Shown: positions 1,558-55,079 of the stretch, in pieces
Layout: each line of letters begins with the position of its first letter
How positions within the stretch are numbered: position 1 is the stretch's first letter
Assembly (NCBI GenBank): GCA_014905635.1
Contig: JABVCE010000027.1
Span: forward strand, 62,001 to 126,000
Length of the DNA stretch: 64,000 nt
Reading direction: 5' to 3'
From: Scenedesmus sp. PABB004
Taxonomy: Eukaryota
Notes under the pieces: model-generated
What the model was told of the DNA's origin: nothing
Seen by the model: only the letters and a program-made list of their open reading frames with translations
Databases searched by the model: none
Program-made: the position numbers and the translations under genes

Positions 1558-6680
<5,123 letters not shown>

Positions 6681-7992: not shown

Positions 7993-8041
7993 CCGCGCGG
8001 CCCCCGTCGCAGGCGCGCCGCGCCGGCGCCCGGCGCGCCTC

Positions 8042-8120
8042 GCCGACCGCGCGCCCGCCGCGCCCAGCGGCAGGACGGCGCTCCTACGAGTGGCTGGGCG
8101 AGCTGGCTGTGGCGCAGGAC
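8042..8120 (+). pseudogene. Degenerate fragment of the cpSRP43 intron end and following exon (copy of ~218-294)
   Basis: gccgaccgcgcgcccgccgcgcccagcggcaggacggcgctcctacgagtggctgggcgagctggctgtggcgcaggac aligns to gccgaccgcgcccgccgcgcgccgcggcaggacgacgcgcccgacgagtggctgggcgaggcgtttgtggcgcaggac, with a 1-nt deletion. Confidence 0.8.
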
Positions 8121-8638: not shown

Positions 8639-11600
8639 ATGGGCAGACGCCGGTCCGCAGCAGCAGCCTGCTGGCTGCTGCTGGCGGCGGCGGCCGCCCT
8701 CGCAGCGGGCGCTGGCGCAGCGGCGCCCGCGCCCTCGCCGAGCCCCAGCCCGCTCGTGGTGCAGCCCGGTGACTGCGTCGACTGCAAGCACTTGCAGGTC
8801 GGGGGCGCCTGCTCGCGATGGTCCTGCCAGTGCAGGAGCGGGTCGTGGCAGGTCACCTGGAGCCTGGTGCGCGCGCGCGCCGCAGCCGGCGGGGAGCGCG
8901 CAGCGCAGCGCAGCGCAGCGCAGCGCCGTGCAGCGCAGCACACCCGTACCGGCAGCAGCCGCGCGGCCGGTGCGTGCTCTCACCCCTGCTGCTGCCCGCC
9001 CCGGCCCACAGCTGCCCGGCTGCAGCAAGGACAAGATCTCTTGGGCCTGCTGTGCCAAGGGCTCCGACAGCTCGCGGTGCGCCCTCACCACGTGCACGGG
9101 CTCGAGCGCCAGCACCTACTGCGATAATGTCAGCAGCATCACCTACACGCTGCCCGTGAGCGAGACCGCCGCCACGTTCTACATGCACGGTGAGCCAGCG
9201 TCGGCGGGCGGCCGCGCATCTGCAGCGGCGTGCGGCGGCAGCAGCTCGGCGGCTCGCGCTTGACCACGCCGGCCCGCTCTGCCCGCAGACGGCAAGTTTG
9301 CCAGCGGCCTGGACTGGCCAAAAGGCAATGATGTGATTTGCGGCGGCGGCGGCGGCGGTAGCTGCGCCTCCTCTGGCTCGGGCGTTTGCCAGGTCCCGGT
9401 CGCGCTGACGGGGCCCGGCGGCATCTGCAGCGGCTCCTGCGGCGCCACGCCAGCAGTGTCGTCGCCTAGCCCGAGCCCATTCTGGAGCCCGAGCCCAAGG
9501 TGAGGTGGCGCTGCGCTCGGTGTGCGGCGGTCGGGCGCCCGTGCCGCCGGCTGCCTTCCTTGGCTCACGTTTGTGTCGGACCGCGCGTCGCCGCAGCCCG
9601 AGCCCCTCGCCGAACCCGAGCCGCTCGCCGAGCCCGAGCCCCTCGCTGAGCCCGAGCCCGCTGTCGAGCCCGAGCCCCAGGTGAGGTGGTGGCCACGCTG
9701 GGTTGGTGTGCAGCGGTCGGGTGCCCGCGTGCCGCCGGCTGCCTTCCTTGGCTCACGTTTGTGTCGGACCACGCGCCGCCGCAGCCCGAGCCCCTCGCCG
9801 AGCCCGAGCCGCTCGCCGAGCCCGAGCCCGAGCCCGAGGTGAGGTGGTGGCCGTGCTGGGTTGGTGTGCTGCGGTCGGGCGCCTGCGTGCCGCCGGCTGC
9901 CCTCCTTGGCTCACGCTTGTGTCGGACCACGCGCCGCCGCAGCCCGAGCCCCTCGCCGAGCCCGAGCCGCTCGCCGAGCCCGAGCCCCTCGCCGAGCCCG
10001 AGCCCGCTGTCGAGCCCGAGCCCCAGGTGAGGTGGTGGCCACGCTGGGTTGGTGTGCAGCGGTCGGGTGCCCGCGTGCCGCCGGCTGCCTTCCTTGGCTC
10101 ACGTTTGTGTCGGACCACGCGCCGCCGCAGCCCGAGCCCCTCGCCGAGCCCGAGCCGCTCGCCGAGCCCGAGCCCGAGCCCGAGGTGAGGTGGTGGCCGT
10201 GCTGGGTTGGTGTGCTGCGGTCGGGCGCCTGCGTGCCGCCGGCTGCCCTCCTTGGCTCACGCTTGTGTCGGACCACGCGCCGCCGCAGCCCGAGCCCCTC
10301 GCCGAGCCCGAGCCGCTCGCCGAGCCCGAGCCCCTCGCCGAGCCCGAGCCCCTCGCCGAGCCCGAGCCCCTCGCCGAGCCCGAACCCGAGCCCGAGGTGA
10401 GGTGGTGGCCGTGCTGGGTTGGTGTGCTGCGGTCGGGCGCCTGCGTGCCGCCGGCTGCCCTCCTTGGCTCACGCTTGTGTCGGACCACGCGCCGCCGCAG
10501 CCCGAGCCCCTCGCCGAGCCCGAGCCGCTCGCCGAGCCCGAGCCCGCTCCCGAGCCCGAGCCCCTCGCCGAGCCCGAGCCCGCTGTCGAGCCCGAGCCCC
10601 TCGCCGAGCCCGAGCCCGCTCTCAAGCCCGAGCCCCTCGCCGAGCCCGAGCCCAAGGTGAGGTGGCGGCTGCGCTGGGTTGGTGTGCAGCAGTCTGCCGC
10701 TCGCATGCGGTCACCGCAGGCCTTGCTTGGCTCACCGTGTGTGCGGTCCTGCACTGCCCTGCCGCAGCACGAGTCCCTCGCCGAGCCCGAGCCGCTCGCC
10801 GAGCCCGAGCCCGCTCCCGAGCCCGAGCCGCTCGCCGAGCCCGAGCCCGCTCCCGAGCCCAAGCCCCTCGCCGAGCCCGAGCCCGCTGTCGAGCCGGAGC
10901 CCCTCGCCGAGCCCGAGCCCGCTGTCGAGCCCGAGCCCCTCGCCGAGCCCGAGCCCAAGGTGAGGTGGCGGCCGCACTGGGCCGGGGCGCAGCAGTCTGC
11001 CGCTCGCATGCGGTCACCGCAGGCCTTGCTTGGCTCACCGTGTGTGGGGTCCTGCACTGCCCTGCCGCAGCCCGAGTCCCTCGCCGAGGCCGAGCCCCTC
11101 GCCGAGCCCGGGCCCGCTCACAAGCCCGAGCCCATTCTGGAGCCCGAGCCCAAGGTGAGGTGGCGGCTGCGCTGGGTTGGTGTGCCGCGGTCGGGTGCCC
11201 GCGCGCCGCCGGCTGCATTCCTTGGCTCACGTTTGTGTTGGACCGCGCGCAGCCGCAGCCCGAGCCCGTCGCCGAGGCCGAGTCCGTCGCCCTCGGCAAA
11301 CCTCAATGACGACGACGATGACGAGGATGGTCGGTCGCCGAGCCCCTCGCCGCGGTCCAGCCCGAGCCCCAGCCCGCGCCCGAGTTTGAGCCCGAGGTGA
11401 GCAGGAGCAGCAGTCTAGTGCTGCTGGGGGTTTGGGTCGCAGGGCTGCCAGCGACAACGCTGGGTGTTCCGCCAGCTCAGCACGCAGTGCGTAGCGTTGT
11501 GTTTGTGCCGCTGTCTGTTTTTGGCTCACGGAGTCGGCCCACGCTGCCCCGCCGCAGCCCGAGCCCGTCGCCGAGCCCGAGCCGCTCGCCGAGCCCGAGC

Positions 11601-14600
11601 CCGCTCCCGAGCCTGAGCCCCTCGCCGAGCCCGAGCCCGCTCTCAAGCCCGAGCCCCTCGCCGAGCCCGAGCCCAAGGTGAGGTGGCGGCTGCGCTGGGT
11701 TGGTGTGCAGCGGTCGGGTGCCCGCGCGCCGCCGGCTGCATTCCTTGGCTCACGTTTGTGTTGGACCGCGCGCAGCCGCAGCCCGAGCCCGTCGCCGAGG
11801 CCGAGTCCGTCGCCCTCGGCAAACGTCAATGACGACGACGATGACGAGGATGGTCGGTCGCCGAGCCCCTCGCCGCGGTCCAGCCCGAGCCCCAGCCCGC
11901 GCCCGAGTTTGAGCCCGAGGTGAGCAGGAGCAGCAGTCTAGTGCTGCTGGGGGTTTGGGTCGCAGGGCTGCCAGCGACAACGCTGGGTGTTCCGCCAGCT
12001 CAGCACGCAGTGCGTAGCGTTGTGTTTGTGCCGCTGTCTGTTTTTGGCTCACGGAGTCGGCCCACGCTGCCCCGCCGCAGCCCGAGCCCGTCGCCGAGCC
12101 CGAGCCGCTCGCCGAGCCCGAGCCCGCTCCCGAGCCCGAGCCCCTCGCCGAGCCCGAGCCCGCTCTCAAGCCCGAGCCCCTCGCCGAGCCCGAGCCCAAG
12201 GTGAGGTGGCGGCTGCGCTGGGTTGGTGTGCAGCGGTCGGGTGCCCGCGCGCCGCCGGCTGCATTCCTTGGCTCACGTTTGTGTTGGACCGCGCGCAGCC
12301 GCAGCCCGAGCCCGTCGCCGAGGCCGAGTCCGTCGCCCTCGGCAAACGTCAATGACGACGACGATGACGAGGATGGTCGGTCGCCGAGCCCCTCGCCGCG
12401 GTCCAGCCCGAGCCCCAGCCCGCGCCCGAGTTTGAGCCCGAGGTGAGCAGGAGCAGCAGTCTAGTGCTGCTGGGGGTTTGGGTCGCAGGGCTGCCAGCGA
12501 CAACGCTGGGTGTTCCGCCAGCTCAGCACGCAGTGCGTAGCATTGTGTTTGTGCCGCTGTCTGTTTTTGGCTCACGGAGTCGGCCCGCGCTGCCCCGCCG
12601 CAGCCCGAGCCCGTCGCCGAGCCCGAGCCGCTCGCCGAGCCCGAGCCCGCTCCCGAGCCTGAGCCCCTCGCCGAGCCCGAGCCCCTCGCCGAGCCCGAGC
12701 CCAAGGTGAGGTGGCGGCTGCGCTGGGTCGGTGTGCAGCAGTCTGCCGCTCGCATGCGGTCACCGCATGCCTTGCTTGGCTCACCGTGTGTGCGGTCCTG
12801 CACTGCCCTGCCGCAGCCCGAGTCCCTCGCCGAGCCCGAGCCGCTCGCCTATCCCGAGCCCGTCGCCGAGCCCGAGCCCCTCGCCGAGCCCGGGCCCGCT
12901 CACAAGCCCGAGCCCCTCGCCGAGCCCGAGCCCAAGGTGAGGTGGCGGCTGCGCTGGGTTGGTGTGCAGCGGTCGGGTGCCCGCGCGCCGCCGGCTGCAT
13001 TCCTTGGCTCACGTTTGTGTTGGACCGCGCGCAGCCGCAGCCCGAGCCCGTCGCCGAGGCCGAGTCCGTCGCCCTCGGCAAACGTCAATGACGACGACGA
13101 TGACGAGGATGGTCGGTCGCCGAGCCCCTCGCCGCGGTCCAGCCCGAGCCCCAGCCCGCGCCCGAGTTTGAGCCCGAGGTGAGCAGGAGCAGCAGTCTAG
13201 TGCTGCTGGGGGTTTGGGTCGCAGGGCTGCCAGCGACAACGCTGGGTGTTCCGCCAGCTCAGCACGCAGTGCGTAGCGTTGTGTTTGTGCCGCTGTCTGT
13301 TTTTGGCTCACGGAGTCGGCCCACGCTGCCCCGCCGCAGCCCGAGCCCGTCGCCGAGCCCGAGCCGCTCGCCGAGCCCGAGCCCGCTCCCGAGCCTGAGC
13401 CCCTCGCCGAGCCCGAGCCCGCTCTCAAGCCCGAGCCCCTCGCCGAGCCCGAGCCCAAGGTGAGGTGGCGGCTGCGCTGGGTTGGTGTGCAGCGGTCGGG
13501 TGCCCGCGCGCCGCCGGCTGCATTCCTTGGCTCACGTTTGTGTTGGACCGCGCGCAGCCGCAGCCCGAGCCCGTCGCCGAGGCCGAGTCCGTCGCCCTCG
13601 GCAAACGTCAATGACGACGACGATGACGAGGATGGTCGGTCGCCGAGCCCCTCGCCGCGGTCCAGCCCGAGCCCCAGCCCGCGCCCGAGTTTGAGCCCGA
13701 GGTGAGCAGGAGCAGCAGTCTAGTGCTGCTGGGGGTTTGGGTCGCAGGGCTGCCAGCGACAACGCTGGGTGTTCCGCCAGCTCAGCACGCAGTGCGTAGC
13801 GTTGTGTTTGTGCCGCTGTCTGTTTTTGGCTCACGGAGTCGGCCCGCGCTGCCCCGCCGCAGCCCGAGCCCGTCGCCGAGCCCGAGCCGCTCGCCGAGCC
13901 CGAGCCCGAGCCCGCTCCCGAGCCCGAGCCGCTCGCCGAGCCCGAGCCCGCTCTCAAGCCCGAGCCCCTCGCCGAGCCCGAGCCCGCTCCCGAGCCCAAG
14001 CCCCTCGCCGAGCCCGAGCCCGCTGTCGAGCCGGAGCCCCTCGCCGAGCCCGAGCCCGCTGTCGAGCCCGAGCCCCTCGCCGAGCCCGAGCCCAAGGTGA
14101 GGTGGCGGCCGCACTGGGCCGGGGCGCAGCAGTCTGCCGCTCGCATGCGGTCACCGCAGGCCTTGCTTGGCTCACCGTATGTGGGGTCCTGCACTGCCCT
14201 GCCGCAGCCCGAGTCCCTCGCCGAGGCCGAGCCCCTCGCCGAGCCCGGGCCCGCTCACAAGCCCGAGCCCATTCTGGAGCCCGAGCCCAAGGTGAGGTGG
14301 CGGCTGCGCTGGGTTGGTGTGCCGCGGTCGGGTGCCCGCGCGCCGCCGGCTGCATTCCTTGGCTCACGTTTGTGTTGGACCGCGCGCAGCCGCAGCCCGA
14401 GCCCGTCGCCGAGGCCGAGTCCGTCGCCCTCGGCAAACCTCAATGACGACGACGATGACGAGGATGGTCGGTCGCCGAGCCCCTCGCCGCGGTCCAGCCC
14501 GAGCCCCAGCCCGCGCCCGAGTTTGAGCCCGAGGTGAGCAGGAGCAGCAGTCTAGTGCTGCTGGGGGTTTGGGTCGCAGGGCTGCCAGCGATAACGCTGG

Positions 14601-17600
14601 GTGTTCCGCCAGCTCAGCACGCAGTGCGTAGCGTTGTGTTTGTGCCGCTGTCTGTTTTTGGCTCACGGAGTCGGCCCACGCTGCCCCGCCGCAGCCCGAG
14701 CCCGTCGCCGAGCCCGAGCCGCTCGCCGAGCCCGAGCCCGCTCCCGAGCCTGAGCCCCTCGCCGAGCCCGAGCCCGCTCTCAAGCCCGAGCCCCTCGCCG
14801 AGCCCGAGCCCAAGGTGAGGTGGCGGCTGCGCTGGGTTGGTGTGCAGCGGTCGGGTGCCCGCGCGCCGCCGGCTGCATTCCTTGGCTCACGTTTGTGTTG
14901 GACCGCGCGCAGCCGCAGCCCGAGCCCGTCGCCGAGGCCGAGTCCGTCGCCCTCGGCAAACGTCAATGACGACGACGATGACGAGGATGGTCGGTCGCCG
15001 AGCCCCTCGCCGCGGTCCAGCCCGAGCCCCAGCCCGCGCCCGAGTTTGAGCCCGAGGTGAGCAGGAGCAGCAGTCTAGTGCTGCTGGGGGTTTGGGTCGC
15101 AGGGCTGCCAGCGACAACGCTGGGTGTTCCGCCAGCTCAGCACGCAGTGCGTAGCATTGTGTTTGTGCCGCTGTCTGTTTTTGGCTCACGGAGTCGGCCC
15201 GCGCTGCCCCGCCGCAGCCCGAGCCCGTCGCCGAGCCCGAGCCGCTCGCCGAGCCCGAGCCCGCTCCCGAGCCTGAGCCCCTCGCCGAGCCCGAGCCCCT
15301 CGCCGAGCCCGAGCCCAAGGTGAGGTGGCGGCTGCGCTGGGTCGGTGTGCAGCAGTCTGCCGCTCGCATGCGGTCACCGCATGCCTTGCTTGGCTCACCG
15401 TGTGTGCGGTCCTGCACTGCCCTGCCGCAGCCCGAGTCCCTCGCCGAGCCCGAGCCGCTCGCCTATCCCGAGCCCGTCGCCGAGCCCGAGCCCCTCGCCG
15501 AGCCCGGGCCCGCTCACAAGCCCGAGCCCCTCGCCGAGCCCGAGCCCAAGGTGAGGTGGCGGCTGCGCTGGGTTGGTGTGCCGCGGTCGGGTGCCCGCGC
15601 GCCGCCGGCTGCATTCCTTGGCTCACGTTTGTGTTGGACCGCGCGCAGCCGCAGCCCGAGCCCGTCGCCGAGGCCGAGTCCGTCGCCCTCGGCAAACGTC
15701 AATGACGACGACGATGACGAGGATGGTCGGTCGCCGAGCCCCTCGCCGCGGTCCAGCCCGAGCCCCAGCCCGCGCCCGAGTTTGAGCCCGAGGTGAGCAG
15801 GAGCAGCAGTCTAGTGCTGCTGGGGGTTTGGGTCGCAGGGCTGCCAGCGACAACGCTGGGTGTTCCGCCAGCTCAGCACGCAGTGCGTAGCGTTGTGTTT
15901 GTGCCGCTGTCTGTTTTTGGCTCACGGAGTCGGCCCACGCTGCCCCGCCGCAGCCCGAGTCCCTCGCCGAGCCCGAGCCGCTCGCCTATCCCGAGCCCGT
16001 CGCCGAGCCCGAGCCCCTCGCCGAGCCCGGGCCCGCTCACAAGCCCGAGCCCCTCGCCGAGCCCGAGCCCAAGGTGAGGTGGCGGCTGCGCTGGGTTGGT
16101 GTGCCGCGTTCGGGTGCCCGCGCGCCGCCGGCTGCATTCCTTGGCTCACGTTTGTGTTGGACCGCGCGCAGCCGCAGCCCGAGCCCGTCGCCGAGGCCGA
16201 GTCCGTCGCCCTCGGCAAACGTCAATGACGACGACGATGACGAGGATGGTCGGTCGCCGAGCCCCTCGCCGCGGTCCAGCCCGAGCCCCAGCCCGCGCCC
16301 GAGTTTGAGCCCGAGGTGAGCAGGAGCAGCAGTCTAGTGCTGCTGGGGGTTTGGGTCGCAGGGCTGCCAGCGACAACGCTGGGTGTTCCGCCAGCTCAGC
16401 ACGCAGTGCGTAGCATTGTGTTTGTGCCGCTGTCTGTTTTTGGCTCACGGAGTCGGCCCGCGCTGCCCCGCCGCAGCCCGAGCCCGTCGCCGAGCCCGAG
16501 CCGCTCGCCGAGCCCGAGCCCGAGCCCGCTCCCGAGCCCGAGCCGCTCGCCGAGCCCGAGCCCCTCGCCGAGCCCGAGCCCCTCGCCGAGCCCGAGCCCG
16601 CTCCCGAGCCCAAGCCCCTCGCCGAGCCCGAGCCCGCTGTCGAGCCGGAGCCCCTCGCCGAGCCCGAGCCCGCTGTCGAGCCCGAGCCCCTCGCCGAGCC
16701 CGAGCCCGCTGTCGAGCCCGAGCCCCTCGCCGAGCCCGAGCCCAAGGTGAGGTGGCGGCCGCACTGGGCCGGGGCGCAGCAGTCTGCCGCTCGCATGCGG
16801 TCACCGCAGGCCTTGCTTGGCTCACCGTGTGTGGGGTCCTGCACTGCCCTGCCGCAGCCCGAGTCCCTCGCCGAGGCCGAGCCCCTCGCCGAGCCCGGGC
16901 CCGCTCACAAGCCCGAGCCCATTCTGGAGCCCGAGCCCAAGGTGAGGTGGCGGCTGCGCTGGGTTGGTGTGCCGCGGTCGGGTGCCCGCGCGCCGCCGGC
17001 TGCATTCCTTGGCTCACGTTTGTGTTGGACCGCGCGCAGCCGCAGCCCGAGCCCGTCGCCGAGGCCGAGTCCGTCGCCCTCGGCAAACGTCAATGACGAC
17101 GACGATGACGAGGATGGTCGGTCGCCGAGCCCCTCGCCGCGGTCCAGCCCGAGCCCCAGCCCGCGCCCGAGTTTGAGCCCGAGGTGAGCAGGAGCAGCAG
17201 TCTAGTGCTGCTGGGGGTTTGGGTCGCAGGGCTGCCAGCGACAACGCTGGGTGTTCCGCCAGCTCAGCACGCAGTGCGTAGCATTGTGTTTGTGCCGCTG
17301 TCTGTTTTTGGCTCACGGAGTCGGCCCGCGCTGCCCCGCCGCAGCCCGAGCCCGTCGCCGAGCCCGAGCCGCTCGCCGAGCCCGAGCCCGAGCCCGCTCC
17401 CGAGCCCGAGCCGCTCGCCGAGCCCGAGCCCCTCGCCGAGCCCGAGCCCCTCGCCGAGCCCGAGCCCGCTCCCGAGCCCAAGCCCCTCGCCGAGCCCGAG
17501 CCCGCTGTCGAGCCGGAGCCCCTCGCCGAGCCCGAGCCCGCTGTCGAGCCCGAGCCCCTCGCCGAGCCCGAGCCCGCTGTCGAGCCCGAGCCCCTCGCCG

Positions 17601-44600: not shown

Positions 44601-47600
44601 CCCCTCGCCGAGCCCGGCGCCTGCCAACGCCAGCAGCAGCGTTGAGCAGCCCGAGCCCGTCGCCGAGCCCGTCGCCCGAGCCGAGCCCGAGGTGAGAGCT
44701 TGCTGCGCGCTGGTTGGGGGCGCAGCAGCGCGCGGCTGGCCGCCGCCGCCGCGAGGGAGGGCCACGCGTGCCGCCGGTTGCGTTCCCTCGGCCGGGCTCA
44801 CCGTGTCGGCCCGCGCTGCACCGCCGCAGCCCGAGCCCCTCGCCGAGCCCGGCGCCGCTCAACCCTTACAACGTTGAGAGCCCGAGCCCGTCGCCGAGCC
44901 CGTCGCCCGAGCCGAGCCCGAGGTGAGAGCTTGCTGCGCGCTGGTTGGGGGCGCAGCAGCGCGCGGCTGGCCGCCGCCGCCGCGAGGGAGGGCCACGCGT
45001 GCCGCCGGTTGCGTTCCCTCGGCCGGGCTCACCGTGTCGGCCCGCGCTGCACCGCCGCAGCCCGAGCCCCTCGCCCAGTCGCCCGAGCCCCTCGCCGAGC
45101 CCGGCGCCGCTCAACCCTTACAACGTTGAGAGCCCGAGCCCGTCGCCGAGCCCGTCGCCCGAGCCGAGCCCGAGGTGAGAGCTTGCTGCGCGCTGGTTGG
45201 GGGCGCAGCAGCGCGCGGCTGGCCGCCGCCGCCGCGAGGGAGGGCCACGCGTGCCGCCGGTTGCGTTCCCTCGGCCGGGCTCACCGTGTCGGCCCGCGCT
45301 GCACCGCCGCAGCCCGAGCCCCTCGCCCAGTCCGAGCCCGTCGCCGAGCCCCTCGCCGAGCCCGGCGCCTGCCAACCCAGCAGCAGCGTTGAGAGCCCGA
45401 GCCCGTCGCCGAGCCCGTCGCCCGAGCCGAGCCCGAGGTGAGAGCTTGCTGCGCGCTGGTTGGGGGCGCAGCAGCGCGCGGCTGGCCGCCGCCGCCGCGA
45501 GGGAGGGCCACGCGTGCCGCCGGTTGCGTTCCCTCGGCCGGGCTCACCGTGTCGGCCCGCGCTGCACCGCCGCAGCCCGAGCCCCTCGCCGAGCCCGGCG
45601 CCGCTCAACCCTTACAACGTTGAGAGCCCGAGCCCGTCGCCGAGCCCGTCGCCCGAGCCGAGCCCGAGGTGAGAGCTTGCTGCGCGCTGGTTGGGGGCGC
45701 AGCAGCGCGCGGCTGGCCGCCGCCGCCGCGAGGGAGGGCCACGCGTGCCGCCGGTTGCGTTCCCTCGGCCGGGCTCACCGTGTCGGCCCGCGCTGCACCG
45801 CCGCAGCCCGAGCCCCTCGCCCAGTCCGAGCCCGTCGCCGAGCCCCTCGCCGAGCCCGGCGCCTGCCAACGCCAGCAGCAGCGTTGAGCAGCCCGAGCCC
45901 GTCGCCGAGCCCGTCGCCCGAGCCGAGCCCGAGGTGAGAGCTTGCTGCGCGCTGGTTGGGGGCGCAGCAGCGCGCGGCTGGCCGCCGCCGCCGCGAGGGA
46001 GGGCCACGCGTGCCGCCGGTTGCGTTCCCTCGGCCGGGCTCACCGTGTCGGCCCGCGCTGCACCGCCGCAGCCCGAGCCCCTCGCCGAGCCCGGCGCCGC
46101 TCAACCCTTACAACGTTGAGAGCCCGAGCCCGTCGCCGAGCCCGTCGCCCGAGCCGAGCCCGAGGTGAGAGCTTGCTGCGCGCTGGTTGGGGGCGCAGCA
46201 GCGCGCGGCTGGCCGCCGCCGCCGCGAGGGAGGGCCACGCGTGCCGCCGGTTGCGTTCCCTCGGCCGGGCTCACCGTGTCGGCCCGCGCTGCACCGCCGC
46301 AGCCCGAGCCCCTCGCCGAGCCCGGCGCCGCTCAACCCTTACAACGTTGAGAGCCCGAGCCCGTCGCCGAGCCCGTCGCCCGAGCCGAGCCCGAGGTGAG
46401 AGCTTGCTGCGCGCTGGTTGGGGGCGCAGCAGCGCGCGGCTGGCCGCCGCCGCCGCGAGGGAGGGCCACGCGTGCCGCCGGTTGCGTTCCCTCGGCCGGG
46501 CTCACCGTGTCGGCCCGCGCTGCACCGCCGCAGCCCGAGCCCCTCGCCCAGTCCGAGCCCGTCGCCGAGCCCCTCGCCGCTCAACCCTTACAACGTTGAG
46601 AGCCCGAGCCCGTCGCCGAGCCCGTCGCCCGAGCCGAGCCCGAGGTGAGAGCTTGCTGCGCGCTGGTTGGGGGCGCAGCAGCGCGCGGCTGGCCGCCGCC
46701 GCCGCGAGGGAGGGCCACGCGTGCCGCCGGTTGCGTTCCCTCGGCCGGGCTCACCGTATCGGCCCGCGCTGCACCGCCGCAGCCCGAGCCCCTCGCCCAG
46801 TCCGAGCCCGTCGCCGAGCCCCTCGCCGAGCCCGGCGCCGCTCAACCCTTACAACGTTGAGAGCCCGAGCCCGTCGCCGAGCCCGTCGCCCGAGCCGAGC
46901 CCGAGGTGAGAGCTTGCTGCGCGCTGGTTGGGGGCGCAGCAGCGCGCGGCTGGCCGCCGCCGCCGCGAGGGAGGGCCACGCGTGCCGCCGGTTGCGTTCC
47001 CTCGGCCGGGCTCACCGTATCGGCCCGCGCTGCACCGCCGCAGCCCGAGCCCCTCGCCCAGTCCGAGCCCGTCGCCGAGCCCCTCGCCGAGCCCGGCGCC
47101 GCTCAACCCTTACAACGTTGAGAGCCCGAGCCCGTCGCCGAGCCCGTCGCCCGAGCCGAGCCCGAGGTGAGAGCTTGCTGCGCGCTGGTTGGGGGCGCAG
47201 CAGCGCGCGGCTGGCCGCCGCCGCCGCGAGGGAGGGCCACGCGTGCCGCCGGTTGCGTTCCCTCGGCCGGGCTCACCGTATCGGCCCGCGCTGCACCGCC
47301 GCAGCCCGAGCCCCTCGCCCAGTCCGAGCCCGTCGCCGAGCCCCTCGCCGAGCCCGGCGCCGCTCAACCCTTACAACGTTGAGAGCCCGAGCCCGTCGCC
47401 GAGCCCGTCGCCCGAGCCGAGCCCGAGGTGAGAGCTTGCTGCGCGCTGGTTGGGGGCGCAGCAGCGCGCGGCTGGCCGCCGCCGCCGCGAGGGAGGGCCA
47501 CGCGTGCCGCCGGTTGCGTTCCCTCGGCCGGGCTCACCGTGTCGGCCCGCGCTGCACCGCCGCAGCCCGAGCCCCTCGCCGAGCCCGGCGCCGCTCAACC

Positions 47601-50600
47601 CTTACAACGTTGAGAGCCCGAGCCCGTCGCCGAGCCCGTCGCCCGAGCCGAGCCCGAGGTGAGAGCTTGCTGCGCGCTGGTTGGGGGCGCAGCAGCGCGC
47701 GGCTGGCCGGCGCCGCCGCGAGGGAGGGCCACGCGTGCCGCCGGTTGCGTTCCCTCGGCCGGGCTCACCGTGTCGGCCCGCGCTGCACCGCCGCAGCCCG
47801 AGCCCCTCGCCGAGCCCGGCGCCGCTCAACCCTTACAACGTTGAGAGCCCGAGCCCGTCGCCGAGCCCGTCGCCCGAGCCGAGCCCGAGGTGAGAGCTTG
47901 CTGCGCGCTGGTTGGGGGCGCAGCAGCGCGCGGCTGGCCGCCGCCGCCGCGAGGGAGGGCCACGCGTGCCGCCGGTTGCGTTCCCTCGGCCGGGCTCACC
48001 GTGTCGGCCCGCGCTGCACCGCCGCAGCCCGAGCCCCTCGCCGAGCCCGGCGCCGCTCAACCCTTACAACGTTGAGAGCCCGAGCCCGTCGCCGAGCCCG
48101 TCGCCCGAGCCGAGCCCGAGGTGAGAGCTTGCTGCGCGCTGGTTGGGGGCGCAGCAGCGCGCGGCTGGCCGCCGCCGCCGCGAGGGAGGGCCACGCGTGC
48201 CGCCGGTTGCGTTCCCTCGGCCGGGCTCACCGTATCGGCCCGCGCTGCACCGCCGCAGCCCGAGCCCCTCGCCCAGTCCGAGCCCGTCGCCGAGCCCCTC
48301 GCCGAGCCCGGCGCCGCTCAACCCTTACAACGTTGAGAGCCCGAGCCCGTCGCCGAGCCCGTCGCCCGAGCCGAGCCCGAGGTGAGAGCTTGCTGCGCGC
48401 TGGTTGGGGGCGCAGCAGCGCGCGGCTGGCCGCCGCCGCCGCGAGGGAGGGCCACGCGTGCCGCCGGTTGCGTTCCCTCGGCCGGGCTCACCGTGTCGGC
48501 CCGCGCTGCACCGCCGCAGCCCGAGCCCCTCGCCGAGCCCGGCGCCGCTCAACCCTTACAACGTTGAGAGCCCGAGCCCGTCGCCGAGCCCGTCGCCCGA
48601 GCCGAGCCCGAGGTGAGAGCTTGCTGCGCGCTGGTTGGGGGCGCAGCAGCGCGCGGCTGGCCGCCGCCGCCGCGAGGGAGGGCCACGCGTGCCGCCGGTT
48701 GCGTTCCCTCGGCCGGGCTCACCGTGTCGGCCCGCGCTGCACCGCCGCAGCCCGAGCCCCTCGCCGAGCCCGGCGCCGCTCAACCCTTACAACGTTGAGA
48801 GCCCGAGCCCGTCGCCGAGCCCGTCGCCCGAGCCGAGCCCGAGGTGAGAGCTTGCTGCGCGCTGGTTGGGGGCGCAGCAGCGCGCGGCTGGCCGCCGCCG
48901 CCGCGAGGGAGGGCCACGCGTGCCGCCGGTTGCGTTCCCTCGGCCGGGCTCACCGTGTCGGCCCGCGCTGCACCGCCGCAGCCCGAGCCCCTCGCCGAGC
49001 CCGGCGCCGCTCAACCCTTACAACGTTGAGAGCCCGAGCCCGTCGCCGAGCCCGTCGCCCGAGCCGAGCCCGAGGTGAGAGCTTGCTGCGCGCTGGTTGG
49101 GGGCGCAGCAGCGCGCGGCTGGCCGCCGCCGCCGCGAGGGAGGGCCACGCGTGCCGCCGGTTGCGTTCCCTCGGCCGGGCTCACCGTGTCGGCCCGCGCT
49201 GCACCGCCGCAGCCCGAGCCCCTCGCCGAGCCCGGCGCCGCTCAACCCTTACAACGTTGAGAGCCCGAGCCCGTCGCCGAGCCCGTCGCCCGAGCCGAGC
49301 CCGAGGTGAGAGCTTGCTGCGCGCTGGTTGGGGGCGCAGCAGCGCGCGGCTGGCCGCCGCCGCCGCGAGGGAGGGCCACGCGTGCCGCCGGTTGCGTTCC
49401 CTCGGCCGGGCTCACCGTGTCGGCCCGCGCTGCACCGCCGCAGCCCGAGCCCCTCGCCGAGCCCGGCGCCGCTCAACCCTTACAACGTTGAGAGCCCGAG
49501 CCCGTCGCCGAGCCCGTCGCCCGAGCCGAGCCCGAGGTGAGAGCTTGCTGCGCGCTGGTTGGGGGCGCAGCAGCGCGCGGCTGGCCGCCGCCGCCGCGAG
49601 GGAGGGCCACGCGTGCCGCCGGTTGCGTTCCCTCGGCCGGGCTCACCGTGTCGGCCCGCGCTGCACCGCCGCAGCCCGAGCCCCTCGCCGAGCCCGGCGC
49701 CGCTCAACCCTTACAACGTTGAGAGCCCGAGCCCGTCGCCGAGCCCGTCGCCCGAGCCGAGCCCGAGGTGAGAGCTTGCTGCGCGCTGGTTGGGGGCGCA
49801 GCAGCGCGCGGCTGGCCGCCGCCGCCGCGAGGGAGGGCCACGCGTGCCGCCGGTTGCGTTCCCTCGGCCGGGCTCACCGTGTCGGCCCGCGCTGCACCGC
49901 CGCAGCCCGAGCCCCTCGCCGAGCCCGGCGCCGCTCAACCCTTACAACGTTGAGAGCCCGAGCCCGTCGCCGAGCCCGTCGCCCGAGCCGAGCCCGAGGT
50001 GAGAGCTTGCTGCGCGCTGGTTGGGGGCGCAGCAGCGCGCGGCTGGCCGCCGCCGCCGCGAGGGAGGGCCACGCGTGCCGCCGGTTGCGTTCCCTCGGCC
50101 GGGCTCACCGTATCGGCCCGCGCTGCACCGCCGCAGCCCGAGCCCCTCGCCCAGTCCGAGCCCGTCGCCGAGCCCCTCGCCGAGCCCCGCGCCTGCCAAC
50201 GCCAGCAGCAGCGTTGCCAGCAGCCCGAGCCCGTCGCCGAGCCCGTCGCCCGAGCCGAGCCCGAGGTGAGAGCTTGCTGCGCGCTGGTTGGGGGCGCAGC
50301 AGCGCGCGGCTGGCCGCCGCCGCCGCGAGGGAGGGCCACGCGTGCCGCCGGTTGCGTTCCCTCGGCCGGGCTCACCGTGTCGGCCCGCGCTGCACCGCCG
50401 CAGCCCGAGCCCCTCGCCGAGCCCGGCGCCGCTCAACCCTTACAACGTTGAGAGCCCGAGCCCGTCGCCGAGCCCGTCGCCCGAGCCGAGCCCGAGGTGA
50501 GAGCTTGCTGCGCGCTGGTTGGGGGCGCAGCAGCGCGCGGCTGGCCGCCGCCGCCGCGAGGGAGGGCCACGCGTGCCGCCGGTTGCGTTCCCTCGGCCGG

Positions 50601-53600
50601 GCTCACCGTGTCGGCCCGCGCTGCACCGCCGCAGCCCGAGCCCCTCGCCGAGCCCGGCGCCGCTCAACCCTTACAACGTTGAGAGCCCGAGCCCGTCGCC
50701 GAGCCCGTCGCCCGAGCCGAGCCCGAGGTGAGAGCTTGCTGCGCGCTGGTTGGGGGCGCAGCAGCGCGCGGCTGGCCGCCGCCGCCGCGAGGGAGGGCCA
50801 CGCGTGCCGCCGGTTGCGTTCCCTCGGCCGGGCTCACCGTGTCGGCCCGCGCTGCACCGCCGCAGCCCGAGCCCCTCGCCGAGCCCGGCGCCGCTCAACC
50901 CTTACAACGTTGAGAGCCCGAGCCCGTCGCCGAGCCCGTCGCCCGAGCCGAGCCCGAGGTGAGAGCTTGCTGCGCGCTGGTTGGGGGCGCAGCAGCGCGC
51001 GGCTGGCCGCCGCCGCCGCGAGGGAGGGCCACGCGTGCCGCCGGTTGCGTTCCCTCGGCCGGGCTCACCGTGTCGGCCCGCGCTGCACCGCCGCAGCCCG
51101 AGCCCCTCGCCGAGCCCGGCGCCGCTCAACCCTTACAACGTTGAGAGCCCGAGCCCGTCGCCGAGCCCGTCGCCCGAGCCGAGCCCGAGGTGAGAGCTTG
51201 CTGCGCGCTGGTTGGGGGCGCAGCAGCGCGCGGCTGGCCGCCGCCGCCGCGAGGGAGGGCCACGCGTGCCGCCGGTTGCGTTCCCTCGGCCGGGCTCACC
51301 GTGTCGGCCCGCGCTGCACCGCCGCAGCCCGAGCCCCTCGCCCAGTCCGAGCCCGTCGCCGAGCCCCTCGCCGAGCCCGGCGCCTGCCAACGCCAGCAGC
51401 AGCGTTGCCAGCAGCCCGAGCCCGTCGCCGAGCCCGTCGCCCGAGCCGAGCCCGAGGTGAGAGCTTGCTGCGCGCTGGTTGGGGGCGCAGCAGCGCGCGG
51501 CTGGCCGCCGCCGCCGCGAGGGAGGGCCACGCGTGCCGCCGGTTGCGTTCCCTCGGCCGGGCTCACCGTGTCGGCCCGCGCTGCACCGCCGCAGCCCGAG
51601 CCCCTCGCCGAGCCCGGCGCCGCTCAACCCTTACAACGTTGAGAGCCCGAGCCCGTCGCCGAGCCCGTCGCCCGAGCCGAGCCCGAGGTGAGAGCTTGCT
51701 GCGCGCTGGTTGGGGGCGCAGCAGCGCGCGGCTGGCCGCCGCCGCCGCGAGGGAGGGCCACGCGTGCCGCCGGTTGCGTTCCCTCGGCCGGGCTCACCGT
51801 GTCGGCCCGCGCTGCACCGCCGCAGCCCGAGCCCCTCGCCGAGCCCGGCGCCGCTCAACCCTTACAACGTTGAGAGCCCGAGCCCGTCGCCGAGCCCGTC
51901 GCCCGAGCCGAGCCCGAGGTGAGAGCTTGCTGCGCGCTGGTTGGGGGCGCAGCAGCGCGCGGCTGGCCGCCGCCGCCGCGAGGGAGGGCCACGCGTGCCG
52001 CCGGTTGCGTTCCCTCAGCCGGGCTCACCGTGTCTGCCCGCGCTGCACCGCCGCAGCCCGAGCCCCTCGCCGAGTCCGAGCCCCTCGCCGAGCCCGGCGC
52101 CTGCCAACGCCATCAATGGCGTTGCCGTTGGCCTCTCACCAAGCCCGAGCCCCGTGCCAAGCCCGGCGCCGAGCGACAACACAGGGACGCCTGCACCGCC
52201 GCCACCTGCAGCGCCGCCAGCATTGCCGTCCCCCTCCCCCGTGCAGGAGCTGGCGCCCGGCCCTGCGCCGAGCGCACCGCCGCCGTCGCCCTCCCCTGCG
52301 CCTGCACCTGGGCTGGCGCCCTCGCCGTCGCCCTCCCCTGCGCAGGAGCTGCTCGGCACCTGCGGCGACACAAAGCCGGGCCAGGCGGACGCCCCGGTGC
52401 GCTTTGCTGCCTGCCCGCAGTACACCGAGTATGCGGAGGCGCTGGCGGGCGTGAGCCCGCCGAGCGCGCTCGCGTGCTGCGCGGCGACCTGCGGAAACGC
52501 TGCCGTCAGCACGCCCGCCAAGGCCTGGGAGTGCCCCACTGGCCGGCTCTTCCGGGACAATGTGACGGTGTTGACCCTCACAAACCCCTCGGACGAGCGC
52601 TGCTGCGAGCTGGGGGTCGCGTCGGAGAGCACAGTGGTGCTGGGCCTGCAAAAGACGGGGCCCACCGCGCCTGTGCGGCTGGGCGATGAGTTTGACTTCA
52701 CCATCACCATCACCGTTACCTCGCTCGGCCTCGACAGCGCCGCGCAGGGCGTGGTCGTCACGGACGAGCTGCCAGAGGGCTTTGCGTTTGCCGGCACGCC
52801 GCGTGCAGGTGCGCGGCTGGGCGCATGGCCGGGCCGCTTGGCCGCCAACTGCCGCGCGTGCGCTCGCACACGCTCACGCTCCGCCCGGCGCTGCCCCCGC
52901 GCCCCCGTGCTGCACAGACTGCAACTACCAGGGCCGCCGCGTGACGTGTGGGCTGGGCTCCGTTGTCGACAGCGCTGTGCTGGTGGTCCGCGTCAAGGCG
53001 GTCAAGGCCGGGCCCTGGGTCAATGTCGCAACGGTGACCGCCACCAACGACAAGAGCGGCCCCAAGAGCGGCTCTTCGCCGGTTGTGGCTGTGCTGGTGG
53101 GTGCCGCACTGCGGTCAGCCGCCTTGGGCGGGGTGCTGCGTGCGCACTCGGGCCAGCCCTTGCCCCGCCTAGCCCGGCGCTAATGCGTGCTCACCCCGTC
53201 GCCGTGCCGTCAACCGCAGGGCGCTTGCTGCGACGCGTCTGCACCCGCAGCGGCGAGCTTCTGCAGCTACACTACGCAGGAGGCCTGCACCGGCGGCGCG
53301 TTCAGCGTTGACAAGCCCTGCCAGCTCGCGGCCTGCCCCGCGCCGCGGCCGCCGGCCAAGGCCACCTGCGCAGACAGTCAGCCCGGTGCCGGTGCGCCCG
53401 TGCCGTTTGCGTGCCCGCCCGGCACCACGTTCAACGTCGCCGCAGCCGGCACGGCGCGCCCCAAAGCGCGCACGTGCTGCCTGGCGACCTGCGCCAACAC
53501 CAAGGTCAACTCCAAGACTCCGCGCCCCTTCAACTGCCGCGCGGCCGGCCCGACGCTCGTCAACGACCCCACCAAGGCCTCCGCCTCGCCGCCCAGCGCG

Positions 53601-55079
53601 GGGGCGTGCTGCAAGGTGGAGGTGGTGGTGGACCCCGACGACGTGCCGGACGTGGGTCTTGTCAAGCGCCTGGTCGGGCCCAACAGCATCAGCATCGGCG
53701 CCGCGTTCACGTACGAGCTCACCGTGACGGTGCTGAAGGGCCTGGCCGGCGCGGACGACGTTGTCGTCGTGGACAGCCTGCCGACCGGGCTGGTCTTTGA
53801 CACCACGTCGCTGGACCTCTCAGGTGCGCGGCGCCCCGCGTGGCTGGCTGGCCGCGCCCTCCCTCGTGCGGCCGCGCGCGCGTGCAGTGACCAACCCCGC
53901 TGCGCCGCGCCCCTGCCCCGCAGTGTGCCGGCCCTCTGGGCAGGAGCTCACGTGCAGCCTGGGCTCCATGGCCTACAAGGAGGCGCGCACCATCAGCTTC
54001 AGGGCGGTCGCGCAGATCGCTGGCCGCTTCATCAACGCGGCAAGCGTGAAGGCCGCCGTGGATGCTGACCCCACCAACAACGCGGCCAAGGCACCCGGTG
54101 CCATTGTGATGGTGCGCGCGCTGCGCTGCACAGACCCTTGCGTGCAGCCGCCCCCGGGTGCACGATGCGCACCCGCCCTTGCGCGCCGTACCCGCTCCCG
54201 CCGCTGCGTGGGCGCAAGCTGACCGCACGGCTGTTTGTGCGCCCGCCTTCGCAGGGCGCGTGCTGCATCAGCGGCCGCCCGAGCGTGCGCAGCCAGGCGA
54301 GCTGCACGCGCGCTGGTGGCATCTTTTTCAACACCAAGAACAGCACCACCGTGCCGTCGTGCATCGCACTGCTGCCGCTCGACCAGCGCCCTGGCGCATG
54401 CTGCAAGGCCGACGGCGGCTGCAGCATCGAGCTGCGCGCTGACTGCGCAGGCGCGGGCCGCAACTGGAAGGTGGGTGAGCGCTGCTTCAAGAGGACCTGC
54501 CCCAAGCCCATGGGCGCGTGCTGCTACAGCGCCATGGGGTGGTGCAAGCAGACCACCAAGGACGAGTGCCTGGGCACGTGGAGCCAGGGCAAGCGCTGCG
54601 GCGAGGACATCTGCCCCCCCGTGTGTGTGTCGTCCTTCCAGCCCTGCACGCCCGGCGGCACGCGCTGCTGCGCGGGCGGCGTGTGCAGCGAGGTGCCTCC
54701 CGCCTTCCCCGGCAGCCCCGTCACGCACGCCTGCCAGCCCGCCGCCAAGTGCGGGCTGGTGAACTCGCCCTGCGGCGCCTGCGACGGTGGCGTGGCCTGC
54801 TGCGCCGGCCTGGAGTGCCGCTACGACTTTGCCTCCAAGTCGGGCAGCTGCCAGCCGCCCCCCGCCTGCAAGTCCGCGGGCAGCGCGTGCGGCGGCGACG
54901 GCGAGTGCTGCCGCGCCAACCGCTGCGGGCAGGACAAGAAGGTCAAGGCGCTCTCGCCGGCCGACTGCAACAAGACCTGCGGCGCGGACTACGCGTGCGA
55001 GACGGAGCGCCAGCGCGACTGCGCTGCGCTGCAGCTCGCGCTGACGTGCTCCAAGGCCGAGTCCAAGCGCCAGGCGTGA
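8639..55079 (+). CDS. Gene B: giant tandem paralog of gene A, ~183 exons, predicted ~7,400 aa. 5' exons 8639-8866, 9012-9189, 9289-9499; ~175 short (SP)n exons in 9597-51918; 3' exons 52057-52808, 52918-53096, 53220-53823, 53924-54111, 54255-55079
   Basis: The N-terminal exons (signal peptide, [12 protein letters not shown]...[12 protein letters not shown]) and C-terminal exons (...[14 protein letters not shown]) match gene A with the same intron positions. All intervening repeat units read AG|GTGAG...GGCTCAC...CCGCAG|C. Five units in 42.7-45.9 kb are frameshifted in this assembly. Confidence 0.75.
9500..22975 (+). repeat. Complex exon-intron tandem array: 52 introns in 4 sequence families (97-104 nt x6, 111 nt x14, 104 nt x16, 161 nt x16), with higher-order periods of 346, 523, 868 and 285 bp
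   Basis: Donor positions recur, e.g. 9681/10027 (346), 18920/19443/19966/20489/21012 (523), 16316/17184/18052/18920 (868) and 21881/22166/22451 (285). All exons I checked (54-270 nt) are multiples of 3. Confidence 0.9.
22976..52056 (+). repeat. 231-bp tandem array of 124 units (138-nt intron + 93-nt exon encoding [31 protein letters not shown]), with length variants of 243-267 bp
   Basis: The first intron is 22976-23113 and the first exon 23114-23206. The ORF track shows exact 231-bp periodicity from 24386 to 42635, with variants after 42635. Confidence 0.95.

What the first reader, a model, noticed from the sequence alone, without database searches (positions are those of the whole stretch)
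8639..55079. A 'satellite' that is a gene: ~176 tandem intron+exon units building a giant (Ser-Pro)n glycoprotein
Seen: 42.5 kb of tandem repeats lies exactly between the N-terminal and C-terminal exons of a copy of gene A, at the position of A's SP shaft. Every unit has a GTGAG donor, a GGCTCAC branch point ~30 nt upstream of a CCGCAG acceptor, and an SP-rich exon. Two of the intron families are near-identical to gene A introns 4 and 5. The hand tally is ~182 introns, ~22 kb CDS and ~7,400 aa, versus 1351 aa for A. Established: (SP)n tracts in algal/plant HRGPs are hydroxylated and glycosylated and form polyproline-II rods (~0.3 nm per residue). Inference: ~6,300 shaft residues could span up to ~2 micrometres, giving a dumbbell-shaped extracellular fibre or tether (mucilage, bristle or adhesion). 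A repeat-masked annotation would split or miss it.
Basis: partly seen in the sequence, partly recalled or inferred. Interest (0 to 1): 0.92.

Follow-up and report, generated by a model that had tools for sequence, protein, structure and literature searches.

The report
Giant algal glycoprotein gene of repeats
A green-algal cell-surface glycoprotein gene has had its Ser-Pro rod region blown up into about 176 tandem copies of a short exon plus a short intron, which could encode a micrometre-long fibre, but no RNA data exist and five repeat units break the reading frame as assembled.

Summary
Window 8639-55079 (+) has the anatomy of one gene: three head exons, 175 short Ser-Pro exons separated by 176 short introns (9500-52056, 42.6 kb), then five tail exons ending at TGA 55079 (183 exons and 182 introns). 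It is the tandem paralogue of gene A (1558-6680, 10 exons, 1,351 aa). All 176 shaft introns start GTGAG, sit in phase 2, and would place TGA in frame if retained. The Ser-Pro frame is the one frame that joins head to tail.

Five exons (42773, 43552, 44565, 45313, 45807) are not multiples of three. Read straight through, the frame stops after 5,382 aa. With those five skipped it is an intact 7,224-aa ORF. No RNA run was listed, so transcription and splicing are inferred.

A giant proline-rich algal protein (Chlamydomonas MST3, 8,572 aa) and silk genes built of homogenised exon-intron pairs are both in print. This is therefore a new variant of known kinds, in an uncharacterised family (new head, two DUF11 domains, Cys-rich tail) whose one full-length relative found is in Scenedesmus sp. 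PABB004. Interest is moderate.

The parts
1558..6680 (+). Gene A, the short paralogue. It has 10 exons and a 4,056-nt CDS encoding 1,351 aa: head, 389-residue Ser-Pro shaft, poly-Asn run, two DUF11 domains and a Cys-rich tail.
   Evidence: Exon model translated without an internal stop. Tail compared with gene B.
7707..8120 (+). Junction of the tandem segmental duplication that made genes A and B. The breakpoint is at 7991/7992.
   Evidence: 7707-7991 matches 57913-58221 (87%), downstream of gene B. 7992-8120 matches 166-294 (80%), upstream of gene A.
8639..9499 (+). Gene B head: exons 8639-8866, 9012-9189 and 9289-9499. It has a signal-peptide-like start followed by a Cys-rich globular head.
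   Evidence: Translation. Exon 2 is 41% identical to P0013 residues 65-125, E 2e-12. No Pfam family.
9500..11070 (+). Shaft zone 1: 8 introns (97 nt x1, 104 nt x5, 111 nt x2) and 7 Ser-Pro exons of 54-192 nt.
   Evidence: Layout table. The 104-nt family is 88% identical to gene A intron 4.
11071..21172 (+). Shaft zone 2: a higher-order repeat x16 of [84- or 120-nt exon, 98-nt intron, 144-nt exon with an acidic [11 protein letters not shown] motif, 161-nt intron]. Six units with the 111-nt intron are interspersed.
   Evidence: The 161-nt intron is 98% identical to A intron 5, and the 98-nt intron is 93% identical to A intron 4.
21173..22882 (+). Shaft zone 3: six units with the 111-nt intron and pure Ser-Pro exons of 102-210 nt.
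22883..52056 (+). Shaft zone 4: 124 units of about 231 bp (93-nt exon plus 138-nt intron). Each commonest exon encodes [31 protein letters not shown].
   Evidence: TRF. 104 of 124 exons and 111 of 124 introns are identical, and no intron has an indel.
42773..45933 (+). Stretch holding the five frame-breaking exons: 42773-42891 (119 nt), 43552-43673 (122), 44565-44691 (127), 45313-45437 (125) and 45807-45933 (127).
   Evidence: The first in-frame stop falls at 43626. Skipping the five exons restores a 7,224-aa ORF.
52057..55079 (+). Gene B tail: exons 52057-52808, 52918-53096, 53220-53823, 53924-54111 and 54255-55079 (TGA). It is an 849-aa module.
   Evidence: Clean translation in the Ser-Pro phase. 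Exon 5 is 43% identical to the P0013 C-terminus over 272 aa, E 2e-54.
52640..53096 (+). DUF11 domain 1, split by the intron at 52809-52917.
   Evidence: PF01345 at 27.4 bits (cut-off 24.6) on residues 195-247 of the exon 52058-52807. The second half (52920-53096) gave no hit on its own.
53664..54093 (+). DUF11 domain 2, split by the intron at 53824-53923.
   Evidence: PF01345 at 21.9 bits (below the cut-off) on the first half and 26.3 bits on the second half, profile positions 64-112.

Best explanation
Shown. Genes A and B arose by a tandem segmental duplication. In gene B the Ser-Pro shaft was then expanded about 16-fold. The expansion amplified units that each carry one short exon and one short spliceosomal intron, most simply by unequal crossing-over or replication slippage. 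The early zones reuse A-type introns. The last zone is a 231-bp unit whose exon core resembles the start of the tail exon. The result is a coding minisatellite. Every shaft intron is in phase 2, and the Ser-Pro frame links a Cys-rich head to a DUF11-plus-Cys-rich tail.

Inferred.
- The locus is transcribed.
- The 97-161-nt introns are removed one by one by intron definition.
- The product is secreted, its prolines are hydroxylated and O-glycosylated, and its serines are galactosylated.
- The shaft forms a segmented polyproline-II rod. At 0.31 nm per residue, 6,280 residues would give up to about 1.9 micrometres, with a kink-like APLNPYNVE motif every 31 residues.
- The globular ends attach or cross-link the rod in the wall or matrix.
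- Because all shaft exons are symmetric, any exon can be skipped without a frame change. The five frame-breaking units need not kill the gene if they are skipped or are consensus errors.
- Array length can change quickly between individuals.
For: - Gene-like anatomy and counts.
- 176 of 176 shaft introns start GTGAG and give an in-frame TGA if retained, so only the spliced form is open in the Ser-Pro frame.
- Four intron lengths (97, 98, 104 and 161 nt) are not multiples of three, while 170 of 175 shaft exons are.
- The tail translates cleanly only when entered in the Ser-Pro phase.
- Gene A is intact, with the same architecture.
- P0013 of Scenedesmus sp. PABB004 carries a homologous head and tail in one protein.
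- The duplication junction is at 7991/7992.
- Intron families are shared with A.
- B's tail shows no stop or frameshift over 750 aligned codons. Ka/Ks against A is 0.63 (45 non-synonymous, 24 synonymous changes; Fisher p 0.068). Derived changes are symmetric, 7 in A and 6 in B, with 27 of 40 uninformative.
- DNA contigs from metagenome runs of other studies carry exon-intron-exon stretches of the unit with 0 differences: 165 nt in X1 and 261 nt in X3. One X2 contig runs from the 138-nt intron into tail-exon sequence. The best holder may be the window's own source sample.
- Established chemistry and rod geometry come from PMC11015965, sections 11 and 12 and passages.
Against: - Five of 175 shaft exons break the frame. 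The net shift is never restored, and the straight-through reading stops after 5,382 aa, without the tail.
- These variants look real rather than random errors. None of the 124 introns of 138 nt has an indel, and the 127-nt variant occurs twice, identically, 1,242 bp apart in the same context.
- The near-identity of the units means the expansion is very recent, so selection has had little time to act. The Ka/Ks test is not significant.
- No RNA evidence of any kind is available.
- The copy number inside about 17.8 kb of identical units cannot be verified.
Confidence: 0.55

Rival explanations
1. Young pseudogene or runaway satellite. After the duplication, gene B's shaft became an unstable minisatellite. 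Frame-breaking variants arose and were copied, and the locus no longer yields a head-shaft-tail protein. It would yield at most a tail-less 5,382-aa product, or transcripts removed by nonsense-mediated decay. Gene A carries the function.
For: - Five frame-breaking exons with no net compensation.
- One variant was duplicated with its neighbours.
- Ka/Ks of 0.63 is not significantly below 1, p 0.068.
- The region upstream of the start has diverged from A's: 58 mismatches plus many gaps in about 260 nt.
- An intact paralogue sits next door.
Against: - Head and tail are free of stops and frameshifts.
- B's tail has not gathered more derived changes than A's, 6 against 7.
- All 176 splice-site sets are intact.
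- Skipping five symmetric exons restores the whole ORF.
- The variants could be consensus mosaics of two unit types.
Confidence: 0.27
2. Assembly effect. The array and its junctions are real, but the copy number and the frame-breaking unit variants come from assembling and polishing near-identical repeats. The true gene is in frame and may be shorter or longer than drawn.
For: - 77 consecutive units (24986-42772) are identical in exon and intron, about 17.8 kb.
- The frame-breaking exons look like mosaics of the 93/123-nt type and the 129-nt type, and occur only where unit types are mixed.
Against: - There are no indels in 17,112 nt of 138-nt introns.
- Flanking genes and both tails read cleanly.
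- The identical 127-nt variant appears twice.
- No independent contig covered the sites, so this stays untested.
Confidence: 0.13
3. The array is transcribed but mostly skipped. With 176 near-identical donors and acceptors, the head is joined to a late acceptor or straight to the tail exon. This gives short A-like proteins or a ladder of sizes rather than one giant product.
For: All shaft introns share phase 2, so every such join is in frame. The splice sites are near-identical.
Against: Introns of 97-161 nt are of the same kind and size as the unique introns of the tail (99-145 nt). That favours pairing of nearest sites; this is an inference, not a test. There are no data either way.
Confidence: 0.05

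Closest known systems
Chlamydomonas reinhardtii MST3 (Cre06.g309951), the mastigoneme core protein
   Same: It is a giant green-algal hydroxyproline-rich protein: 8,572 residues and 42 proline-rich repeats. It is proposed to span about 800 nm and to set filament length. Its PPII geometry is 429 residues = 133 nm. Its gene model had to be repaired by hand (PMC11015965, section 12 read in full, other passages).
   Different: The repeat chemistry differs: P13/P11(XXP)3 against (SP)n with [12 protein letters not shown]3 has a PKD-like membrane domain, and none was found here. No sequence homology was tested. The paper's text has no occurrence of 'intron', so whether its repeats carry introns is unknown to me.
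Spider silk genes with repetitive exon-intron pairs (flagelliform spidroin, Argiope MaSp2)
   Same: Each protein repeat is bounded by an intron, and the introns are homogenised within the gene. Two intron types can alternate, as the 98- and 161-nt introns do here. Unequal crossing-over is invoked in both cases (PMC9779670, passages of section 18).
   Different: These are unrelated proteins in animals, with far fewer units. The units here are much shorter (231 bp) and far more numerous (124 + 52). Expression is shown for the silk genes and not here.
Chlamydomonas fibrous HRGPs with head and shaft (sexual agglutinins; GP1 'PPII rods with kinks')
   Same: Both are extracellular rods with a globular head that mediates adhesion (PMC2113723, abstract). 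The idea of (SP)n rods interrupted by kinks comes from Ferris et al. 2001, which I saw only as a reference-list title.
   Different: The sizes of agglutinins (about 3,400-3,900 aa) are recalled, not seen in any call. No homology of head or tail was tested against them. DUF11 domains are not a feature I know of in those proteins (recalled).
Volvocine pherophorins (Pfam PF12499)
   Same: Both have a dumbbell layout, with globular domains separated by a Ser/Pro-rich rod (recalled). The Atlas listed a chlorophyte cluster, partly PF12499, as the second look-alike of the relative's head, at score 0.75. That is a lead only.
   Different: There is no PF12499 match for the head exons, for whole P0013 or for the P0013 head alone, even at E up to 10. 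I do not file it as a member.
Hypothetical protein HT031_003959 of Scenedesmus sp. PABB004 (P0013, 1,619 aa)
   Same: It is the only full-length relative found. The head is homologous (41% over 61 aa) and so is the Cys-rich tail (43% over 272 aa). It has three DUF11 domains, 134.8 bits.
   Different: Its spacer is a run of Cys-rich modules, not Ser-Pro. It is uncharacterised.

Membership tests
Algal/plant hydroxyproline-rich glycoproteins (HRGP) | Long proline-rich repeats such as (SP)n | tested here: met
   The shaft is 6,280 residues, 40.9% P and 36.1% S, with 2,105 SP dipeptides.
Algal/plant hydroxyproline-rich glycoproteins (HRGP) | Secretory signal peptide | tested here: inconclusive
   The N-terminus reads as basic residues followed by a hydrophobic Ala/Leu stretch. 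This was judged by eye; no predictor was run.
Algal/plant hydroxyproline-rich glycoproteins (HRGP) | Prolyl hydroxylation and O-glycosylation of the protein | not testable with these tools
   This needs biochemistry. The chemistry of such tracts is taken from PMC11015965.
Pherophorin (Pfam PF12499, DUF3707) | Match to the family profile | tested here: not met
   No hit for the three head exons, whole P0013 or the P0013 head at E up to 10. The only support is an Atlas lead at 0.75.
DUF11 (Pfam PF01345) repeat proteins | Match above the curated cut-off | tested here: met
   27.4 and 26.3 bits against a 24.6 cut-off on two exon pieces; 21.9 bits on a third; no hit for exon 52920-53096. Each domain is split by an intron. 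P0013 scores 134.8 bits over 3 stretches.
Genes built of repetitive exon-intron pairs with homogenised introns (architecture, not homology) | Each protein repeat is bounded by an intron, and the introns are near-identical within the gene | tested here: met
   175 shaft exons and 176 introns in five families. 111 of 124 introns of 138 nt are identical.
Genes built of repetitive exon-intron pairs with homogenised introns (architecture, not homology) | The units are shown to be spliced into one mRNA | not testable with these tools
   No RNA holder was listed, and only DNA contigs could be laid.
MST3-type ruler protein | PKD-like membrane anchor domain | tested here: not met
   Pfam on all five tail exons found only DUF11.
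Introner-like elements (dispersed repeated introns) | Copies of the intron spread through many unrelated genes | not testable with these tools
   No genome is held for this window. Within the window, all 124 copies of the 138-nt intron lie in the one tandem array.

The most novel reading that the evidence does not exclude
The 42.6-kb array is a working, fully spliced coding minisatellite. One gene with 182 introns yields a Ser-Pro glycoprotein of about 7,200 aa and about 2 micrometres. Its length, and so the size of an extracellular structure such as a bristle, tether or mucilage strand, is set by repeat copy number and can change in a single unequal crossover. That would make it a heritable, fast-mutating length ruler. 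Because all exons are symmetric, defective units are simply spliced out.
Probability: 0.2. Interest if true: 0.8.

Novelty: new variant of a known kind. Interest (0 to 1): 0.55.

Why it matters
If it is expressed, this would be among the most intron-rich and most repetitive protein-coding genes described in an alga. It would also be a clean natural case of exon-plus-intron units behaving as a satellite while staying coding.

It would give a direct handle on how rod length in hydroxyproline-rich glycoproteins evolves, through copy number. It would show how a spliceosome copes with over a hundred identical adjacent introns.

It is also a caution for annotation. Repeat masking would hide the gene. 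An ORF caller would instead report a spurious 6,653-aa Arg/Ala-rich frame through the array.

The head plus DUF11 plus Cys-rich tail family is itself uncharacterised.

Tried and rejected
- RNA evidence: no RNA holder was listed for 51300-55400.
On 42765-45806, 7 contigs from 4 runs were laid. None covered the frame-breaking positions, so that question stays open.
- Own genome: not held, so other arrays or dispersed copies could not be sought.
- Metagenome contigs: 2 distant loci (L001, L002; 51% over 43 aa and 35% over 106 aa). They were not studied further.
- Word-indexed protein search with tail exon 5, longer proteins: 12 weak hits at 30-42% identity. It missed P0013.
- Exhaustive search with exon 53220-53822: 60 hits at E up to 0.001, mostly through DUF11. 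One was at E below 1e-30.
- Head search with P0013 residues 20-185: found only P0013 itself.
- The listing of cluster members could not be run.
- AlphaFold2 of tail exon 5 on a 4-row alignment gave pLDDT 60.2 and pTM 0.28. That is too poor for a fold search, so none was made.
- Idea that the introns host snoRNAs, as in repeated host-gene arrays: Rfam found nothing in the window at gathering scores. By eye the 138-nt intron has no C/D or H/ACA boxes.
- Other reading frames: the PE-type frame has a stop in each exon, and the minus strand is closed every 166 aa or less in zone 4. The Arg/Ala frame is open for 6,653 aa only because 231 is a multiple of three in 78% G+C DNA, and it joins neither head nor tail.
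- Pfam found nothing for the upstream gene pieces 247-411 and 558-875. My impression of a chromodomain protein is therefore unconfirmed.
- Earlier notes of this scan: nothing relevant.
- Literature searches listed no paper describing an algal HRGP gene made of tandem intron-plus-exon units. These are word searches of open-access text only.


Full report
WHAT IS THERE

The window is 72-80% G+C with no N. No genome is held for it.

Gene B. On the + strand an ATG at 8639 opens a signal-peptide-like start, followed by a Cys-rich head in three exons: 8639-8866, 9012-9189 and 9289-9499. From 9500 to 52056 (42,557 bp) the sequence is tandemly repeated. TRF gives a 231-bp unit x 124.2 copies at 95% matches, plus 158-346-bp periods upstream. 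From 52057, five exons read as a clean 849-aa module ending at TGA 55077-55079. This holds when the module is entered in the phase AG|C.

Gene A. This paralogue lies upstream at 1558-6680. It has 10 exons, a 4,056-nt CDS and 1,351 aa with no internal stop, and a 389-residue Ser-Pro shaft.

THE REPEAT UNITS AS INTRON PLUS EXON

A script paired each GTGAG with the next GGCTCAC and the next CAG. It called 176 shaft introns and 175 shaft exons. The whole gene has 183 exons and 182 introns.
- Intron lengths: 138 nt x124, 98 x16, 161 x16, 111 x14, 104 x5 and 97 x1.
- Donors: 176 of 176 are GTGAG.
- Acceptors: 160 of 176 are CCGCAG, and 16 (the 98-nt family) are GCGCAG.
- The branch A of CTCAC lies 29, 23 or 33 nt before the intron's end.

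The pairing rule required GGCTCAC, so its universality is partly by construction. The three GTGAG sites without it all lay outside the array. The motif stands 182 times on the + strand against 3 times on the - strand.

All shaft introns up to 42772 are in phase 2. Because the donor follows AG, every one of the 176 puts TGA in frame if retained. Only the spliced form is therefore open in the Ser-Pro frame. Four intron lengths (97, 98, 104 and 161 nt) are not multiples of three, whereas 170 of 175 shaft exons are. That second point is weak evidence on its own, because the exons are made of 6-nt Ser-Pro repeats.

ZONES OF THE ARRAY

- Zone 1 (9500-11070) uses 97-, 104- and 111-nt introns.
- Zone 2 (11071-21172) is a 16-fold higher-order repeat. 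Each copy is an 84- or 120-nt exon, a 98-nt intron, a 144-nt exon encoding an acidic [11 protein letters not shown] motif, and a 161-nt intron. Six units with the 111-nt intron are interspersed.
- Zone 3 (21173-22882) has six units with the 111-nt intron.
- Zone 4 (22883-52056) has 124 units of a 93-nt exon plus a 138-nt intron.

The 161-nt intron is 98% identical to gene A intron 5. The 98-nt intron is 93% identical to A intron 4. The 138-nt intron has no close A counterpart (0.69 or less). The commonest zone-4 exon encodes [31 protein letters not shown]. Of 124 units, 104 exons and 111 introns are identical, and the other 13 introns differ only by substitutions.

Five zone-4 exons have lengths 119, 122, 127, 125 and 127 nt (starting at 42773, 43552, 44565, 45313 and 45807).
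- With all exons joined, the CDS is 22,295 nt, which is not a multiple of three. The first stop comes after 5,382 aa, at 43626.
- With those five left out, the CDS is 21,675 nt and reads as one 7,224-aa ORF to the TGA at 55079.

The variants look like mosaics of the common unit core and of the 129-nt unit core. That second core in turn resembles the start of the tail exon. They could be real recombinants, and two facts favour this. The 127-nt form occurs twice, identically, 1,242 bp apart. There is also not one indel in 17,112 nt of 138-nt introns. Alternatively they could be consensus mosaics made where two unit types were polished together. I could not decide between these. The DNA contigs of four metagenome runs did not cover those positions.

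EVIDENCE THAT HEAD, ARRAY AND TAIL ARE ONE GENE

- Gene A has the same head-shaft-tail order.
- The one full-length relative found is P0013, named by its source as a hypothetical protein of Scenedesmus sp. PABB004 (1,619 aa). It carries a homologous head (41% over 61 aa, E 2e-12) and a homologous tail (43% over 272 aa, E 2e-54). It has three DUF11 domains, and its spacer is made of Cys-rich modules rather than Ser-Pro.
- In gene B the tail holds two DUF11 domains, each split by an intron. The exon pieces score 27.4, 26.3 and 21.9 bits against a cut-off of 24.6, and one further half gives no hit.
- The head has no Pfam family. A pherophorin-type cluster appeared only as a weak Atlas lead, score 0.75.

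ORIGIN

The stretch 7707-7991 matches 57913-58221, downstream of gene B (87%). Directly after it, 7992-8120 matches 166-294, upstream of gene A (80%). A and B are thus the two copies of one tandem segmental duplication. Their tails differ at 70 of 2,295 exon positions and 17 of 475 intron positions.

IS GENE B STILL UNDER CONSTRAINT?

Over 750 aligned tail codons there are 45 non-synonymous and 24 synonymous differences. Ka/Ks is 0.63 and Fisher p is 0.068. With P0013 as outgroup, 7 amino-acid changes are derived in A and 6 in B, and 27 of 40 are uninformative. There is no stop or frameshift in B's head or tail. This fits a live gene or a very young pseudogene, and it cannot tell them apart.

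INDEPENDENT DNA

Runs from freshwater and sludge metagenomes hold parts of the locus. X1 held 0.47 and X2 held 0.32 of the sampled words of 51300-55400.

Laid on 42765-45806, a 165-nt X1 contig and a 261-nt X3 contig match exon-intron-exon stretches with 0 differences. An X4 contig of 400 nt matches with 4 differences. One X2 contig runs from the 138-nt intron into sequence that reads like the tail exon.

These show that the unit exists as genomic DNA in other samples. The best holder may be the window's own source. They say nothing about RNA.

HOW IT MOST LIKELY WORKS (INFERENCE)

- The locus is transcribed, and short introns of the same kind as the unique ones in the tail are removed one by one.
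- The product enters the secretory pathway.
- Prolines in the Ser-Pro tracts are hydroxylated and O-glycosylated, and the serines are galactosylated. This is what was seen in the Chlamydomonas mastigoneme structure. That study also finds S, Y, E and A enriched in proline-rich regions (PMC11015965, passages and section 11). These are the residues of this shaft, alongside N and L.
- At 429 residues = 133 nm (PMC11015965, section 12), 6,280 shaft residues could reach about 1.9 micrometres if fully extended.
- The 124 APLNPYNVE motifs and the 16 acidic motifs probably make it a segmented rod rather than a straight one.
- The Cys-rich head and the DUF11-plus-Cys-rich tail are the likely attachment or cross-linking ends.
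- Because every shaft exon is symmetric, any exon skip is frame-neutral. This offers a way around the five defective units, and it would also allow a ladder of isoforms.

COMPARISON WITH WHAT IS KNOWN

Size is not unprecedented. MST3 of Chlamydomonas has 8,572 residues and 42 proline-rich repeats, and is proposed to set the 800-nm length of the mastigoneme. Its gene model also needed manual repair.

The gene architecture has a precedent in spider silk genes. There, repetitive exon-intron pairs with homogenised introns, sometimes two alternating types, are described and are linked to unequal crossing-over (PMC9779670, section 18 passages).

Three things are unusual here:
- the scale, 176 intron-bearing units of which 124 are nearly identical at 231 bp;
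- the setting, an algal HRGP-like gene;
- the uncharacterised domain family.

My four literature searches listed no paper on an algal HRGP gene of this build.

VERDICT

- It is a new variant of known kinds.
- Confidence that a giant Ser-Pro protein is really made from this locus is about 0.55.
- The main rival is a young pseudogene or runaway satellite (about 0.27).
- The next rival is assembly effects on copy number and on the five variants (about 0.13).

Noticed in passing
window 22883-52056, + strand, frame +1 relative to the Ser-Pro frame: 231 bp is a multiple of three and the DNA is 78% G+C. As a result an Arg/Ala-rich frame stays open for up to 6,653 aa through the array, exons and introns alike. 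An ORF-based gene caller would report this spurious giant protein instead of the spliced gene.
   Followed up: yes
window 7707-8120: This is the breakpoint of the tandem duplication that created genes A and B. A piece of the gene downstream of B (matching 57913-58221) abuts a piece of the gene upstream of A (matching 166-294) at 7991/7992.
   Followed up: yes
window 3760-3904 (gene A): A run of about 48 AAC codons encodes a poly-Asn tract between gene A's shaft and tail. Gene B has no such run at the matching place.
   Followed up: partly
window 55477-56249: A 163-bp tandem repeat of 4.7 copies at 98% identity sits just downstream of gene B's stop. Its function is unknown.
   Followed up: no
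window about 57.3-61.5 kb (+) and 62.2-64.0 kb (-): These are the neighbouring genes. One carries a VRR-NUC nuclease domain (76.9 bits) on the + strand. The other is the carboxyl-transferase part of an acetyl-CoA carboxylase-type gene (104.4 bits) on the - strand.
   Followed up: partly
window 1-880 (+): This is the 3' end of an upstream gene with Gln- and Ser-rich runs. By eye it recalled a chromodomain protein, but Pfam found nothing in the two pieces tried.
   Followed up: partly
P0013 residues about 185-640: The Scenedesmus relative fills the spacer between head and DUF11 domains with about a dozen Cys-rich modules instead of Ser-Pro. The spacer of this family therefore seems free to be swapped or expanded.
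   Followed up: no
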